Source: an uncultured Candidatus Binatia bacterium (GTDB lineage: Bacteria > Desulfobacterota > Binatia > UBA9968 > CAXXLF01). From it: a stretch of DNA of 64,000 bases. Of this stretch, positions 23,201 to 29,200 are shown piece after piece (the stretch's first letter is position 1; the number at the start of each line of letters is the position of its first letter). The stretch spans positions 1,888,001 through 1,952,000 of the forward strand of contig OZ244621.1 of the NCBI GenBank assembly GCA_965218425.1. The letters run 5' to 3'. The position numbers are program-made.

Positions 23201-26200
23201 TTAGTACGACGACGGTTGAACCCCATCCACCGGACTGTGGCGGCGCGTCTTTGAAGGAAGAAACTAGAGGGTTCTTTGCGAGGACCGACTGGACGATTCG
23301 CCTTTGAACGCCCTTGCCCTTTCCATGGATAACGCGGACTTCAGATAATCCTGCCTGGTGACACTGATGAATGTATTCTTCCACCACGCTGGGGATATCT
23401 CTGGGGGCGAAGGCGTGCAAATCAATGGAGTCCTCTAGAGGTAGGACAATGGGCTCGTCGAAGGGAGAATCATCCGATTCAGTAGCAGGGGGTTGCGGTG
23501 GATCTGTCCTCTTCCGGCTCATTTTCAAAAAGTTTTTCGCGCCAAGACGCAAAGAGCGCCAAGATTTATTAACCGCGGATTAACGCGGATGAGCACGGAC
23601 AAAAGCCGGGCCTTTTGCCCGATCGTCGTCTCCCGATTGGGCAAAAATTTTTCCCTCAGCGTACTTTGCGTCTGTGCGGTGAATCATGATCTACGATAGT
23701 CGGGGAAAATTGCGGTTGATTGATCCTAACGCTTTGCGCTATGCGCTTTGCTCCTTTCATGCCGGCCGCTAATCCAGATCGATATCCTTCAACGGTTTTG
23801 TGATGGGTTCCTCCTTGGCCTTCTTGAGGAGGTCCTGAAATTTACGATCCAAGACTTTCCCCTTGCTCTTTTCCGCTTCCTTTAATTGTTGGTATTTCTC
23901 GTCACGGCGGGTGGCCTCTTCCTCAAGCATCCTGGGGGCGTCCTTTAGCTGAGCCACGGGGTGGGGTCTGGCGGGGACTTTGTGTTCCAGCACTGCCGCC
24001 AGCGCCGTATCTATGGTGAGGGTGGCTTCGCAGCAAGGGCAGGTCACCTGTATGGTAGAGGCGTTTTTATTTGACATTGGTCAGTTCTCCTCATTCGCCC
24101 ATTATCCCCTGATTTCGATCAGTTCTCCATCGGGGCCTCGAAAGACTACCCTTCGCCAACCCTCTTCCCTCTTCTCCCGTGCAGCCGTGGGGTGAGATTT
24201 CTGTGCGATTTCGACGCCTTTGTTCTCGAGCTCGGCAACCGCCCCATCGAAATGGTCCGTTTCCAGACAGAAATGAAAGCCTTTCATGGGGCCATCGGAC
24301 CGATGAGTGAGTTCCAGCACCGTGTCACCCAGCTTGAGATAGGCGATCTTCATGCCGTTACCCGCTGCATGTTGGAAGTATTTCTTAAAGCCGAATGTGA
24401 GTTCATAAAAATCCACCGAGCGGTCCAAGTCTTTCACATGCAGCGCCACATGGTCGATACGCTTGTACATGACGTCTCACCTCCCGTTCAGCATACTATT
24501 TCGTATGCCGGTTTTGCAAAACCGTCCATCTCTTGGACGCTTGATTGATAAGCGTAAAATTGGTACTGAAATGTAAGGGTGAAGCTAACACAGAGAACTT
24601 CTCCCTTCAACGCCGTTTGCGGCGCCCGAGCGCCTAACTGTTGATTTCAGTCACAGGCAAAGACCAACTCCAAATTCGCCACAGCAATAAAAAGGCTATT
24701 GGACGCCATGCCGATTTATAAGTTAATCGATGATGTCGTGTTTCCGCACCCCAGTGACGCCCAACAGGACGGGCTCTTGGCCGTGGGTGGAGACCTGAGT
24801 GCAAAGCGGGTCTTGGCAGGCTACCAGATGGGTATCTTCCCGTGGTACTCGGACGGACAGCCCATTCTATGGTGGTCTCCCGACCCCCGCACGATCTTCG
24901 AACCCGATAGTATCATCATCTCCAAAGCGCTGCGCCAGACGCTGAAAAAGGGTGTCTATGAGGTCACCTTCGATAAGGCTTTTGTGGATGTCATAAAAGC
25001 CTGTAAAGAAGTGCCTCGAAAAGGGCAGCAGGGAACCTGGATCACGTCGGAGATGCAGAAGGCCTATATCCATTTGCACGAACTGGGATATGCCCACTCG
25101 GTGGAGAGTTGGTCCGAGGGGGAACTGGCGGGAGGTCTTTACGGGGTGTCCCTGGGAAGGTGCTTTTTCGGTGAGTCGATGTTTTTTCGCAAGACGGATG
25201 CCTCGAAGGTCGCGTTGGTGGTTTTACTGCAGCGATTAAAGGCATGGGGCTTTCAAGTGATCGATGCGCAGATGACCAATCAACATCTTTTGAGCCTGGG
25301 GGCCAAAAATGTGCCGCGGGATGTATTTCTCAGTCGGTTGAAAGAGGCGCTGCGCTTTCCCACCCTCAAGGGGGGCTGGGACGGAACCACGGGATCCTAC
25401 ATGTAATGGGGCCGGACCCCGGCTTCCACGGTCTCCGCGGGGGACGAGTCTTCCGGTCGCGGGCAACAGGCCGTTGAATATCTGAAGCTCTACGTTCCAT
25501 GCCCGCGCCCTTCATCCTCATTCCCCTCGTCGACTTGCATTCTCTGTCACTCAGTACTCAGCACTTTTTACTCGTGCCTAACTTAGGAGCGAGCCCCGGT
25601 TCGGCAGTGGTCAACTCTAAGGCTCAGACCCGAAACGAGTCCGCCGTCGGTGCCCGGCCGCGGGCAAACTGTGAGGGTAGGTACTAGATGAGTGAATGAG
25701 TTCGCTTAGCTGCCTGGGCAACGGCCGGTGTTTAGATGAGACTCGAAATCGCCGTGGAATAGCTTCACGGCGCTCTCGATGGGCGGTCCGGGCATGTTAA
25801 TCAGTGCGCAAAATCCCTTTCCCCTGTTGAAGGCAAGGACTTTGCCCGGTTGATCCAGGAGGGCTGCCTGCCCCTCACCCTGTTGGACCTTCTTGAGGAT
25901 TGCCACCAGCATGTTGGTTTCCATGCGGCAGGCTGGGCATTGATCGCAGGACTCCCGCGCAAAAAATTCCGCAATGTTCAGGGTATCCTCAACAAGGCAC
26001 TGTCCCTCGGTGATAAAGCGGACCACACCGCAGCCGATGGAAGAGCCCATATCGCGGTAACTCTGGTGGTCCATCGGTGCGTCCAGCGTATCGGGCAGGA
26101 GAAAGGCCGTAGAAGGGCCGCCGGGCTGGATAGCCTTGATGGTCTTGTTGCCCTTGATTCCACCGCCGCATTCCTCCAGCAAAAAGCGTAGTGGAGTGCC

Positions 26201-29200
26201 GAAGGGCAGCTCGTAGACTCCCGGTCGTTCCACTTCCTCATTCAAGGAGAAGATCATGGTGCCCGGGCTCTCCGCGGTTCCGAAGCTCCGGTACCACTGT
26301 GCGCCTTTAGCCAGGATTGGCGCCAGGTTCGCCAGTGTCTCCACGTTGTTGACGGTGCTGGGCTTGGCAAAAAGCCCCGCGGTGGCGGGGAAGGGCGGCT
26401 TCTCCCGGGGCTTTGGTTCTCTGCCCTCCAGTGCCTCCAGTGCCGCGGTATCCTCCCCGGCCACATAGTTGGTGGACGCCGCGTGAACGACAATATCGAG
26501 GTCAAAATTGCCGCCCAGTATCTTGCTTCCCAGATAGCCGGCCTTTTCCGCTTCGGCCAGGGCCTCGGTCATGCTCCGGGTCGCGGCCTTGTAGTCCTGA
26601 TTGATGTAGAGATAAGCCTTCGACGCCCCGACGGCATAGGCGGCGAGGACAACGCCCTCCAGCACCAGGTGAGGGAGGTTTTCCATCAGGAGACGATCTT
26701 TTTTGCTTCCCGGTTCGTCTTCGCCGCCATTGAGCACGACGTAATGAGGTTGCTCCCCGCACTCGGCGGTAATAGCCATTTTCTTTCCCGTGGGAAATCC
26801 GGCCCCTCCACGGCCCTTGAGTCCGGACTCGGTCACCTCTTTGATGATGGCGTCAGGAGAGCCCTTAACGGCTTTTTTAAGGGCGCCGTAGCCGCCCCGC
26901 GCCTGGTAGTCTTTAAGTCCCTCTTTTCCTTCCACGATCCCCCGTGGGAAGAGAATTCCCTCCATGGGCCCTCCTAGAAAATACCGGTATCGAGTAGCTG
27001 GTAGATGAGGTCTTTGAGTGAGCTGTCGATCGTGTCGAGTCGTTTGACGTCGGGTCCGCCCGAGAGATGCTCAACGATTTCATCCACGTCCTCCATCTTG
27101 ACTCCGGCGTACCAGGTCTTTTCGGGGTAAAGGACGATGTTGGGGCCTTCCTGGCAGGCGCCGAAGCACATGTACGATTTGACCTCCACATCGCTGAGGC
27201 CCTTTTCATTCGCCTTCTTCTCGATCTCTTTCATGATCTCTTCAGAACCCCGACTCTTGCAATCGATATTCTGACAGACTAGACAGATGGACATCGCTGA
27301 ATAATCTCCTTCCCTGGGGGCTGAACTCGAGGGTGGCTCTTCGGGGATCAGTTCATCTGCAGAACCCAGTCCTTGTCCTTGAAGATTTCGCTCAACCGGC
27401 GCTCATCTTCCTCCGTAGGCAACGACTCGGTCAAGTGCTTCTCATAGTCCTGTTGAGAGAGTAGCCGGCCGTCCACACCGTATGTCTTGCCCGCATGCTC
27501 GCCGATGGAGCGATGGAACTTCAAGTCAGGAACGGTCAACTTGGGTTCCCCCTCAGGAATAGACTGGTTTAGGGATTCCACCAAGCCTCGAGCTTCCTTA
27601 AGGTATTGCTCCAACGCCAGCTCGTTGAGGCGTCCCTTGTCCGGTTCTTCCTTGCGTTCATGCTCATCGTAACGGCCCTTGAGGCCCCAGACATAGGCCC
27701 ACTGTGCAGAGGAGGATTGAGTGGTGCCGAAGAGGTCGTAGGCCGTGGACAGCCACTTGTTAAAGTATTTCTGAACGATGGGGAGGGGAATTTTTTGCGC
27801 CTTGACGATGCGGGTCAGTCCCGTGTTCCCGGTAAACATGTGGAAGAACTCTTCCTTCAGCATGGCCGTTACGCTCTCGGCAAGCGGGGCGAAGGCGGAG
27901 TGGCTCAGCATGGTGAGCTGGTACTTCCCGTCGCGGTCCACGAACTGAGTGTAGGTAAAGAAGTCGAGCCAGTTGCTCACGGGCCGGTTAAAAGAGCCCA
28001 GGAGACGATTTCCCTGTCCCGCACGGCGTTGCAGCAGCTTTTCCGCCTCGCGTTTCCCGGTATCGCCGAAATAGGTTACCAGCAAGTAGCACATCTGCCA
28101 TCCGTGGCGCATCTCCTCGCTGTTGACCCGGATGAGCGCGGCGCGGTCGTAATCCGTGGGCGCGGCATCCAGGAGGTTCTTTTGCTGTTCCACCGAGGCG
28201 AATTCCGTGTCTCCCTGATAAACGATCAGGTTCAGCAGGGCGTCCGTAATGGTTTGGTTGGGGATCTGAGTCGTCCTTTTCCACTTCGGCTGTCCTTTAA
28301 AATCGCCGAATTCGATTTCAGCGGCATGGAGCTCGCCGAGCTTGGTCTCGAATTTGTAGTCTCCCAAAAGCGTCGCGTCATAGCCGATGTCCCTATGCCA
28401 TTCGTGGAAACAGTCGATCCAGTCATCGAAAGTAGCGATTCTCGCCATTGGCTTTCCTCCTCCGGGGTCTAATTAGTTCGAACGATCGTTCGAATGTATG
28501 AACTGGAGCCGTGAAAGTCAACCCCGTCGGCGGCACTTGATCCCAAGACGTATTGGTGACTGGAACTTTAAGGATTTTTTCTTTTGATGTCAAATAGTTG
28601 GCAGCTTCACCCCAAAGCGTTCCCATGAGCTGGGAACGTCGATCCGGCCGGATAGTTGAGCCGATGCCGGAACGGCCGTCCCTTACTCCGGTAGAGGCCC
28701 CCGTTTCTTTGCCAGTTCGGCCTTTGCGGCTTCAACGACGCTCGCCGCAGTGAAGCCGAACCTTTTCTGAAGGTCCTTGAGCGGGGCGGAAGCCCCGAAA
28801 GACTTCATGCCGATCATCCGGCCCGTGGGGCCGGCGTACTTGGCCCACCCGAAGGTGGAGGCCTGTTCCACTGAAACTCGCGCGGTCACCGAGGGTGGAA
28901 TCACACTGTCCCGGTAGGCTTCCTCCTGTTCGTCGAACAGCTCCCATGACGGCATGCTGACCACCCGTGACTCGATTCCCTCGGTTTTGAGCTGCTCGTA
29001 GGCGTCCACGCATAGCGGGACCTCGCTGCCGCTGGCCAGCAAAAGGACCTCGGGTTTGCCGTCGTCCGCATCGGCCAGGACATAGGCGCCTCGTTTCACC
29101 CCCTCGGCGCAGGCGTACTTGGTGCGGTCCAGCGTGGGCAATGCCTGACGGGTCAGGATGAGGGCCGCGGGTGCATGGCGGAGGTTCATGATGACCTTCC

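What a model noticed while it worked through the whole genome (the two positions that open the first line are those of the whole stretch)
25706..28448. BoxB-like diiron epoxidase wired to a NuoF-type flavoprotein and thioredoxin-like ferredoxin instead of BoxA
A core three-gene operon joins a short BoxB-like diiron protein (366 aa, ligands intact) to a thioredoxin-fold [2Fe-2S] ferredoxin and a stand-alone NuoF-like NADH flavoprotein. BoxA and BoxC are not found in the order, so a complex I NuoEF-type module is the likely electron donor of a non-canonical ring-oxidising enzyme.
Evidence so far: g01874 is 36% identical to BoxB; orthologs in 25 of 25 order genomes, 20 of them at 73-100%; order diiron-ferredoxin-NuoF in 16 of 16 loci; the family pair is near in 87 of 122 order genomes and 119 of 31174 overall. 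BoxA and BoxC models hit 0 of 25. A separate complete nuoEFG exists. Predicted diiron-ferredoxin complex: weak support, 0.36 against best control 0.00, contacts agree 63%, pLDDT >=83; passes at 0.60 or under came from 18 of 157 solved pairs and both passing mismatches.
(Added by a program. Inside this text positions count along the whole contig: contig position 1,888,001 is position 1 of the stretch shown here. "Call 12" and the like, gene names such as g00115 and contig names such as C1 are that model's own, and its searches are not shown. The text may have been shortened before it was handed on; [...] marks where a part breaks off. The agent that wrote the report below was given it as the finding of a first reader that could run no searches.)

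Follow-up and report, generated by a model that had tools for sequence, protein, structure and literature searches.

The report
Aromatic-ring epoxidase with unusual electron supply
An uncultured bacterium carries a three-gene operon for a compact relative of the benzoate-ring-opening iron enzyme BoxB that appears to get its electrons from a small ferredoxin and a repurposed respiratory-type flavoprotein instead of the usual partner, which would be an undescribed way of powering this kind of oxygenase.

Summary
The operon is real: a 366-aa BoxB-fold diiron protein (six ligands intact, TM 0.90 to BoxB), a thioredoxin-like [2Fe-2S] ferredoxin and a NuoF paralogue. This order holds in 49 of 49 orthologous loci with room. 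BoxA passes its cut-off in 0 of 123 order genomes.

New here:
(1) A PaaR-type palindromic operator sits ahead of 46 of 48 orthologues. In one acidobacterium it also precedes the separately located ferredoxin and NuoF genes.
(2) Outside the order, the NuoF paralogue occurs in 3 of 37 short-BoxB genomes, exactly those with the ferredoxin beside an intact short BoxB.
(3) Twelve genomes lost the adjacent diiron gene but keep ferredoxin and NuoF under purifying selection, plus a sister diiron paralogue elsewhere.
(4) A benzoate-CoA ligase, a BoxC-like crotonase, aldehyde dehydrogenases and beta-oxidation genes lie scattered in this genome.

Best reading: an aryl-CoA (probably benzoyl-CoA) epoxidase fed NAD(P)H to FMN to Fe-S to ferredoxin to diiron (0.62). 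Substrate, nucleotide and binding are untested. Rival: a shared donor, since this genome has 84 Rieske-oxygenase-sized genes and no FNR-type reductase. The scan noted this operon before in three other genomes; six paper searches found no description.

The parts
27348..28448 (-). Short BoxB-like carboxylate-bridged diiron oxygenase, 366 aa (clade A of the short-BoxB family)
   Evidence: six ligands and 5 of 7 BoxB pocket residues kept; AlphaFold2 pLDDT 93.9; Foldseek TM 0.90 to BoxB, 0.52-0.55 to PaaA
26974..27294 (-). Thioredoxin-fold [2Fe-2S] ferredoxin, 106 aa; Cys7, Cys12, Cys43 and Cys47 invariant; conserved C-terminal extension
25706..26965 (-). Stand-alone NuoF-paralogue flavoprotein, 419 aa (FMN/NAD(P)H site, SLBB domain, one [4Fe-4S] motif, no extra ferredoxin domains)
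   Evidence: 40% identical to the genome's complex I NuoF
28477..28494 (.). Perfect 18-bp palindrome, candidate operator of a PaaR-like TetR repressor, just upstream of the diiron start codon and abutting the -10 hexamer
   Evidence: (core present in 46 of 48 orthologous upstream regions; best-scoring site in the genome); fits the Thermus PaaR consensus quoted in PMC6651687
28493..28521 (-). Sigma-70-like promoter match (-35 at 28521-28516, -10 at 28498-28493)
   Evidence: 2 sites found against 0.9 expected, so weak alone; its position against the conserved palindrome makes it plausible

Best explanation
The operon encodes a three-component aryl-CoA ring epoxidase of a BoxA-independent, Box-like pathway. 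SHOWN by sequence and model: a BoxB-fold diiron protein with all metal ligands and most of the benzoyl pocket, a [2Fe-2S] ferredoxin, and a non-bifurcating-type NuoF paralogue. The three are syntenic and share an upstream operator. INFERRED: the flavoprotein takes a hydride from NAD(P)H on FMN and passes single electrons through its [4Fe-4S] cluster to the ferredoxin. The ferredoxin reduces the diiron centre in a transient contact, and the diferrous enzyme uses O2 to epoxidise an aromatic CoA thioester, most likely benzoyl-CoA. INFERRED further: a single-domain crotonase and an aldehyde dehydrogenase encoded elsewhere open the ring, PaaG/F/H/J-like enzymes finish the route, and a CoA-thioester-sensing TetR repressor controls the operon through the palindrome. 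The same donor pair probably also serves the sister clade-B diiron enzyme in trans.
For: Fold and site: TM 0.90 to BoxB. Six ligands plus Q116, T119, S123, F193 and F203 equivalents are invariant in 116 of 116 short-BoxB rows (residue roles from PMC5489048). Synteny holds in 49 of 49 loci with room. No BoxA in 123 order genomes and no FNR-type NAD-binding domain at all in this genome (control rang in 11 of 14). Outside the order, 3 of 37 short-BoxB genomes carry the NuoF paralogue (52-56% identity against about 40% background). These are G123, G128 and G132, where the ferredoxin lies beside short BoxB. A fourth, G159, has the ferredoxin and a decayed NuoF inside a full cluster with hcr-like genes, aldehyde dehydrogenases, crotonase and a CoA ligase. 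In G123 the NuoF paralogue is in line with a PaaG-like crotonase and a 3-hydroxyacyl-CoA dehydrogenase, and the same palindrome precedes both its ferredoxin/crotonase locus and its NuoF/aldehyde dehydrogenase locus. All four are clade B, sister to clade A (SH-aLRT 95). Twelve genus-g4 genomes without clade A keep clade B and intact ferredoxin and NuoF with unchanged dN/dS (NuoF 0.146 vs 0.139; ferredoxin 0.108 vs 0.086). Five order genomes without any short BoxB (G081, G088, G111, G116, G120) also lack the paralogue. Benzoate markers: BzdR/BoxR-like regulators beside short BoxB in L067, L075 and L079; a benzoate-CoA ligase family gene in this genome at 591 bits, above the 375 cut-off, and Hcr-like genes.
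Against: No biochemical data. 33 of 37 short-BoxB genomes outside the order have neither ferredoxin nor NuoF paralogue, so the family does not need this module and some third donor exists. Clade B lies convergent to a GlpC/RFO-like CCG Fe-S protein in 35 of 35 order cases, which is an alternative donor candidate. G125 (clade B) and G020 (93% complete, clade B only) lack the NuoF paralogue. Three positions near the site differ from BoxB throughout the family (P121F, F206Y, T210V/I), and the operator resembles that of a phenylacetyl-CoA sensor, so the substrate may not be benzoyl-CoA. In this genome no strong operator precedes the ligase, crotonase or beta-oxidation genes. The co-occurring genomes are kin, and the five co-absences include four genomes only 78-84% complete in which adjacent genes would be lost together.
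Confidence: 0.62

Rival explanations
1. Ferredoxin plus NuoF paralogue form a shared, cell-wide NAD(P)H-to-oxygenase electron hub. The diiron enzyme is one client, and the many orphan Rieske oxygenases are others.
For: This single-contig, 97%-complete genome has 93 Rieske matches, 84 of them in ORFs of at least 350 aa. It has no PF00175, no PF14759 and no hit to FNR-type proteins from relatives. All 123 order genomes have Rieske matches while only 50 have PF00175. The pair stays under purifying selection after the adjacent diiron gene is lost, and 10 of those 12 loci have also lost the operator.
Against: The pair travels with clade A/B diiron genes across phyla and shares their operator. All 12 genomes that lost clade A keep clade B. 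G088 (95% complete) has 15 Rieske matches but no NuoF paralogue. An unclassified flavoprotein at C1:2446878, a 2Fe-2S ferredoxin and a Rieske ferredoxin could serve the Rieske enzymes. A repressed operon is a poor place for a housekeeping donor.
Confidence: 0.15
2. Same wiring but a different substrate: the enzyme epoxidises phenylacetyl-CoA (a one-subunit replacement of PaaABCE) or a substituted benzoyl-CoA rather than benzoyl-CoA. This overlaps the best explanation in wiring and is listed for the substrate question.
For: The operator fits the Thermus PaaR consensus. PaaG-like, PaaF-like, PaaH-like and thiolase genes accompany the family. A PaaK-like ligase lies next to the hcr-like genes in this genome. 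P121F, F206Y and T210V/I changes are family-wide.
Against: The fold is much closer to BoxB (TM 0.90) than to PaaA (0.52-0.55). Q116, T119, S123, F193 and F203 are kept. BzdR/BoxR-like, benzoate-CoA ligase family and Hcr-like neighbours point to benzoyl-CoA. None of the Paa-like genes scanned passes a Paa equivalog cut-off.
Confidence: 0.25
3. The true diiron donor is another protein (the CCG/RFO-like Fe-S protein, ETF or an unidentified reductase). Ferredoxin and NuoF serve another step of the same regulon, such as recycling NAD(P)H from the aldehyde dehydrogenases or exchanging electrons with the Hcr-like molybdoenzyme.
For: The CCG protein is adjacent to clade B in 35 of 35 order cases, and its family has been proposed as the electron partner of diiron rubrerythrins (PMC5114695). 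In G123 and G159 the NuoF gene sits with aldehyde dehydrogenases rather than with the diiron gene. Most short-BoxB genomes lack the pair.
Against: This genome has no CCG orthologue at E 1e-60 yet keeps an intact clade-A operon. In the order the pair follows the diiron gene, not the dehydrogenases or hcr genes, in 49 of 49 loci. The ferredoxin directly follows short BoxB in two further acidobacterial loci.
Confidence: 0.13

Closest known systems
BoxAB benzoyl-CoA 2,3-epoxidase of Azoarcus (Aromatoleum) evansii (BoxB structures 3PER, 3PM5, 3Q1G; TIGR03225/TIGR03224)
   Same: Same fold (TM 0.90), same six iron ligands, five of seven benzoyl-orienting residues, no structural subunit in the operon, and a similar set of pathway neighbours (CoA ligase, crotonase, aldehyde dehydrogenase, BoxR-like regulator).
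   Different: About 110 aa shorter (N-terminal and three internal or C-terminal segments missing); below the BoxB cut-off; P121F, F206Y, T210V/I. No BoxA (FAD, two [4Fe-4S], NADPH; PMC4498308), no two-domain BoxC, an FMN flavoprotein plus separate [2Fe-2S] ferredoxin instead, and a TetR-type operator.
PaaABC(D)E phenylacetyl-CoA 1,2-epoxidase and its Thermus PaaR regulon
   Same: Same diiron family (PF05138), PaaG/F/H/J-like lower-pathway genes, and an operator that fits the PaaR consensus.
   Different: TM only 0.52-0.55 to PaaA, TIGR02156 41 bits against a 280 cut-off, no PaaB, PaaC or PaaE in the operon, and no FNR-type reductase domain in the genome.
NuoF/Nqo1-family diaphorase subunits (complex I NuoEF, HydB, HoxF, FdsB, NfnB)
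   Same: FMN/nucleotide domain, SLBB and the four-cysteine [4Fe-4S] motif. By the criteria of PMC7311640 it is of the non-bifurcating type (Ser and Lys at the first site, Tyr at the second, no extra clusters; the SLBB motif is GGPS followed by S or T, not GGPSG).
   Different: No NuoE, NuoG, hydrogenase or formate dehydrogenase subunit nearby; its own signature at the nucleotide site in 52 of 52 copies; a separate clade from the 10 other NuoF sequences compared (FastTree support only 0.74).
Thioredoxin-like [2Fe-2S] ferredoxins (Aquifex aeolicus 1F37; HydB N-terminal domain)
   Same: Four-cysteine thioredoxin-fold motif, E about 3e-13.
   Different: A conserved C-terminal extension and a fixed link to an oxygenase and a NuoF paralogue. 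That the stand-alone members have no settled physiological partner is recalled, not checked here.

Membership tests
BoxB (benzoyl-CoA 2,3-epoxidase oxygenase, TIGR03225) | Score above the equivalog cut-off (499 bits), about 470 aa | tested here: not met
   245 bits, 366 aa; canonical controls P0032 and P0033 score 672 and 909
BoxB | BoxB fold | tested here: met
   Foldseek TM 0.90, rmsd about 2 A to 3Q1G/3PM5
BoxB | Iron ligands E120, E150, H153, D211, E240, H243 | tested here: met
   All six present; invariant in 49 of 49 clade-A rows
BoxB | Benzoyl pocket Q116, T119, S123, F193, F203, F206, T210 | tested here: inconclusive
   Five of seven identical; F206Y and T210V/I throughout the short family, while 9 of 9 canonical rows keep F and T
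Box pathway | BoxA reductase encoded | tested here: not met
   0 of 123 over cut-off, best 51 bits; no PF00175 in this genome
Box pathway | Two-domain BoxC dihydrolase encoded | tested here: not met
   Best match in this genome 72 bits against a 712 cut-off, to a single-domain crotonase; not tested across the order
Box pathway | Benzoate-CoA ligase present | tested here: met
   TIGR02262 (subfamily model) 591 bits against 375 at C1:1857315-1858859
BoxB | O2- and NADPH-dependent epoxidation of benzoyl-CoA | not testable with these tools
   Needs an enzyme assay
PaaA / PaaABCE | PaaA equivalog score and PaaB, PaaC, PaaE partners | tested here: not met
   TIGR02156 41 bits against 280; only two PF05138 genes in the genome; no PF00175; PaaB not searched by its own model
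Complex I NuoEF | NuoF equivalog score, a full NuoE partner and nuoG context | tested here: not met
   428 bits against 559; ferredoxin 31 bits against 142 on TIGR01958; the true nuoEFG lies elsewhere
Electron-bifurcating HydB-type subunit | A/E-x-M motif, Phe at the FMN site, GGPSG, extra Fe-S domains (PMC7311640) | tested here: not met
   S-x-K, Tyr, GGPS(S/T), no extra domains
PaaR-type TetR regulon | CNAACGNNCGTTNG operator at the promoter | tested here: met
   Exact match at 28477-28494, one of two in the genome; conserved in 46 of 48 orthologous regions
PaaR-type TetR regulon | The TetR protein binds this site and is released by an aryl-CoA | not testable with these tools
   Candidate TetR at C1:1251733-1252440, orthologue in 112 of 123 genomes; nearest structures include 3DCF, 5K7F and 3VPR; binding untested

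The most novel reading that the evidence does not exclude
A complex I-type NuoF has been detached from respiration and, with a thioredoxin-fold ferredoxin, became the soluble NAD(P)H hub of this order. It would feed the short-BoxB epoxidases and also the dozens of Rieske oxygenases (84 oxygenase-sized genes in this genome) that have no recognisable reductase.
Probability: 0.15. Interest if true: 0.86.

Novelty: new variant of a known kind. Interest (0 to 1): 0.66.

Why it matters
The characterised aryl-CoA epoxidases use FNR-type reductases (BoxA, PaaE; PMC4498308). A NuoF-family flavoprotein with a thioredoxin-fold ferredoxin would be a new reductase architecture for a diiron oxygenase and would give this ferredoxin class a concrete partner. 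The short-BoxB family is near-universal in this Binatia order and also occurs in Acidobacteriota, Gemmatimonadota and Planctomycetota. It falls below the BoxB cut-off and is named as a PaaI/PaaA-type subunit or hypothetical protein in several databases, so a CoA-dependent aerobic route for aromatic rings in abundant uncultured bacteria is probably being missed. Three small soluble proteins and one 18-bp operator make it directly testable.

Tried and rejected
Complex prediction of diiron protein with ferredoxin, both as alignments (52 and 14 rows): scores 0.20 and 0.17, below the 0.32 mark, verdict 'no answer'.

Apparent crotonase-short-BoxB fusions (P0312, P0316) look like frameshifted run-on reading frames and were rejected as fusion evidence. 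That search returned no BoxC to align with the crotonase.

RNA evidence: one metatranscriptome (X1, labelled sponge metagenome by the tool) holds a single 193-bp identical contig of the diiron gene at depth 3.6. This is too little to show expression or co-transcription, and DNA carry-over is not excluded.

Operator scan for a genome-wide regulon: only the site in this window is strong (31.4 bits). Four identical 18.7-bit sites have no gene start nearby, and a shuffled genome gave one site at 18 or more.

The terminator scan was at chance level.

A split or degenerate complex I, a bifurcating subunit and canonical PaaABCE were considered and rejected (membership table).

A link to the Geobacillus benzoate route was only a recalled lead from the crotonase's best PDB match 2PPY. 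The paper search gave nothing on it and no Geobacillus genome was examined.

The paper search for the NuoF residue that sets NADH/NADPH preference gave one unrelated review, so that point rests on recall. The BoxB structure paper PMC3190730 is not held.

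
Full report
OBSERVATION. The 366-aa protein scores 245 bits on the BoxB model (cut-off 499) and 41 on PaaA (cut-off 280). Its closest solved relative is BoxB, by sequence and by structure: an AlphaFold2 model from a 52-row alignment (pLDDT 93.9) matches BoxB at TM 0.90 and PaaA at 0.52-0.55. The 106-aa protein is a thioredoxin-fold [2Fe-2S] ferredoxin with four invariant cysteines in 14 of 14 aligned rows. It is nearer to Aquifex ferredoxin 1F37 and the HydB N-terminal domain than to complex I subunits. The 419-aa protein is a NuoF paralogue, 40% identical to the genome's complex I NuoF, which lies in a separate nuo operon. 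Record titles of the close relatives point to Candidatus Binatia.

THE DIIRON PROTEIN. Using the residue roles in PMC5489048 (passages read), all six iron ligands and five benzoyl-orienting residues (Q116, T119, S123, F193, F203) are invariant in 116 of 116 short-BoxB rows. P121, F206 and T210 are replaced by F, Y and V/I in all 116, while 9 of 9 canonical rows keep them. The shortening comes from the N-terminus, two internal segments and the C-terminus, not the four-helix core. A quick IQ-TREE tree of 137 rows (long branches flagged, root only for drawing) separates clade A (this gene; 49 rows, SH-aLRT 99), clade B (21 rows from Binatia and Acidobacteriota, 100) and clade C (13 Binatia rows). 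A and B are sisters at 95. The position of canonical BoxB relative to these is not resolved. This genome holds a decayed second copy near C1:332084 and an unrelated 238-aa PF05138 protein.

SYNTENY AND ABSENCE OF BoxA. In the order, 122 of 123 genomes match the diiron protein and 97 listed matches are near full length at 72-100%. The NuoF paralogue is in 109 of 123: 113 matches at E 1e-100, minus four whose best hit is at complex I level. The order diiron-ferredoxin-NuoF holds in 50 of 52 distinct clade-A loci, 49 of 49 with room; of 51 other loci, 2 have the ferredoxin directly downstream and none has NuoF. BoxA passes its cut-off in 0 of 123 (no positive control among the control genomes). 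As a stronger check, this genome has no FNR-type NAD-binding domain at all (control rang in 11 of 14). These counts include four unpublished genomes (G051, G054, G073, G093); no claim depends on them alone.

EVIDENCE BEYOND SYNTENY. First, other phyla. I searched 37 genomes reached through 37 of the 51 non-clade-A loci. The NuoF paralogue (52-56% identity, against about 40% for other NuoF) is intact in 3 (G123, G128, G132). A ferredoxin orthologue (E below 1e-20) is in 4: those three and G159. In all three the ferredoxin lies beside short BoxB while NuoF is elsewhere. In G123 NuoF is in line with a PaaG-like crotonase and a 3-hydroxyacyl-CoA dehydrogenase and divergent from a box-type aldehyde dehydrogenase. 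In G132 it has a second ferredoxin. In G128 it stands alone. G159 has ferredoxin and a decayed NuoF in a cluster with hcr-like genes, clade-B diiron, two aldehyde dehydrogenases, crotonase and a CoA ligase. All four are clade B; the fifth clade-B genome (G125) has neither. These are relatives, so this shows co-inheritance, not independent events.

Second, a natural deletion. In genus g4, 13 of 28 genomes lack clade A. I fetched the 12 that keep NuoF. Eleven show only a 3' remnant of the diiron gene and one shows none, while ferredoxin and NuoF are intact in all 12. Pairwise dN/dS is unchanged: NuoF 0.146 (11 loci; one dropped because the extracted stretch ran past a stop) against 0.139 (6 loci); ferredoxin 0.108 (12) against 0.086 (13). 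The losses do not form one clade on the NuoF tree. All 12 keep clade B. So the pair works without its neighbour, which fits service to clade B in trans but also a wider role. The thirteenth, G020, has clade B and no NuoF paralogue.

Third, an operator. A perfect 18-bp palindrome at 28477-28494 abuts a -10 match. Its core is within 150 bp upstream of 46 of 48 clade-A genes, and the two others differ by one base (one of them is L010 from unpublished G093). It is the best site in the genome. A near-consensus site lies within 6 kb upstream in 20 of 51 other loci, typically just ahead of the TetR gene that heads acidobacterial and gemmatimonadal clusters. In G123 it precedes both the ferredoxin/crotonase and the NuoF/aldehyde dehydrogenase promoters. 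It fits the Thermus PaaR consensus quoted in PMC6651687 (passages). PaaR senses phenylacetyl-CoA and BzdR/BoxR sense benzoyl-CoA (PMC4424350, passages). The orthologous TetR is in 112 of 123 order genomes. Only 2 of the 12 deletion loci keep the site.

THE PATHWAY. Outside the order, short BoxB is clustered with two single-domain crotonases, an aldehyde dehydrogenase, thiolase, 3-hydroxyacyl-CoA dehydrogenase, a CoA transferase, Hcr-like molybdoenzyme genes and, in three loci, a BzdR/BoxR-like regulator. This genome has homologues of most of them, scattered. They include a benzoate-CoA ligase family gene over cut-off, Hcr-like genes below cut-off, and a crotonase-aldehyde dehydrogenase pair (68% and 80% to the G159 cluster). 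A TetR with PaaF/G/H/J-like genes is also present; no BzdR-like regulator was found. The crotonase is the genome's best match to the BoxC model, on its N-terminal domain (72 bits), and has one orthologue in 107 of 123 genomes. That it replaces BoxC is inference. BoxA acts transiently and in small amounts, and BoxC relieves product inhibition (PMC4498308, passages).

MECHANISM. Most likely: NAD(P)H reduces FMN, the [4Fe-4S] cluster passes electrons to the [2Fe-2S] ferredoxin, which reduces the diiron site, and O2 is inserted as an epoxide into an aryl-CoA ring. The paralogue meets the non-bifurcating criteria of PMC7311640 (section 17 read; motifs). Its nucleotide site carries a signature in 52 of 52 aligned copies (some loci duplicated) and in 0 of 10 other NuoF, including Asp where complex I has Glu. 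From recall, not from a call, that position affects NADH versus NADPH use in E. coli, so the nucleotide is open. Whether the ferredoxin is a mobile shuttle or docks like NuoE is also open; two copies in G132 and G128 allow both. I put the wiring at about 0.7 and benzoyl-CoA as the main substrate at about 0.55 given aryl-CoA epoxidation.

AGAINST. 33 of 37 outside genomes have neither partner. Clade B is always convergent to a GlpC/RFO-like CCG protein (35 of 35), a family proposed as partner of diiron rubrerythrins (PMC5114695, passages); this genome lacks it. The genome also has 84 Rieske-oxygenase-sized genes without an FNR- or BphA4-type reductase, so the pair may have more clients. An unclassified flavoprotein could fill that gap instead. 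No strong operator links the scattered pathway genes in this genome.

NOVELTY. Six full-text searches listed no paper describing a short BoxB family or a NuoF/thioredoxin-ferredoxin donor for a diiron oxygenase. I saw listings and abstract starts for these, and passages of PMC13186573, PMC10803450 and PMC11825192, none of which describes it. The library lacks most subscription papers, and I read no supplements, where such genes could be tabulated. The scan itself noted the same operon in three other genomes and the family in three more. My reading was recorded before that look-up, and those notes are not independent support. It works like BoxAB but is not a member: a new variant of a known kind, interest 0.66.

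Noticed in passing
G000 whole genome: 93 Rieske-domain matches, 84 in ORFs of at least 350 aa, but no PF00175 or PF14759 reductase domain; the Rieske expansion is order-wide and 73 of 123 genomes lack PF00175. The electron donor of these enzymes is unexplained.
   Followed up: partly
G000:C1:2446878-2448407 (L197:5909-7405): A 499-aa flavoprotein with only weak GltD-like matches; possible ferredoxin reductase for the orphan oxygenases.
   Followed up: partly
G000:C1:332084-332350 (L111 about 7000-7500): Decayed, frameshifted fragment of a second short-BoxB paralogue between a UbiD-family gene and an amidohydrolase; its clade was not determined.
   Followed up: partly
G000:C1:897066-897782 (L112:7067-7783): A 238-aa PF05138 protein with a full set of diiron ligands, followed by electron-transfer-flavoprotein-like genes; in G036 and G037 its orthologue directly follows a crotonase and a clade-C short BoxB.
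   Followed up: partly
L062:9133-10395 and 34 other clade-B loci in the order: A GlpC/RFO-like CCG Fe-S protein always lies convergent to clade-B diiron genes, also in several acidobacterial loci; possible second donor type.
   Followed up: partly
window 12104-15171: A catalase-peroxidase-like gene (label from its sequence, not scanned) precedes a truncated 131-aa ORF and a Fur-like gene. In G088 the same place holds a CCG protein, a full-length 193-aa homologue (DUF3501-like by recall) and Fur, suggesting a replacement in this lineage.
   Followed up: partly
G000:C1:4358066-4364703 (L120): A PaaK-like ligase, HcrCAB-like molybdoenzyme genes and UbiD-family genes in one run; Hcr-like genes co-cluster with short BoxB in Acidobacteriota, which joins an anaerobic-type step to an oxygenase route.
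   Followed up: partly
L074, L081 and related acidobacterial loci: The short-BoxB clusters contain a uracil-DNA-glycosylase-family gene, a rhodanese and an ArsC-like gene but no recognisable reductase; their electron donor is unknown.
   Followed up: no
G000:C1:695310, 728383, 740836, 4375300: Four identical 18-bp operator-like matches with no gene start nearby, probably part of a repeated element.
   Followed up: no
window 23769-25406: Leu/Phe-tRNA-protein transferase (convergent), a glyoxalase-fold gene and a 102-aa Cys-containing unknown ORF follow the operon in many order genomes; treated as unrelated synteny.
   Followed up: no
window 34307-40614: ORFs that look like a type I restriction-modification set (label from sequence motifs, not scanned) lie 6 kb from the operon.
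   Followed up: no
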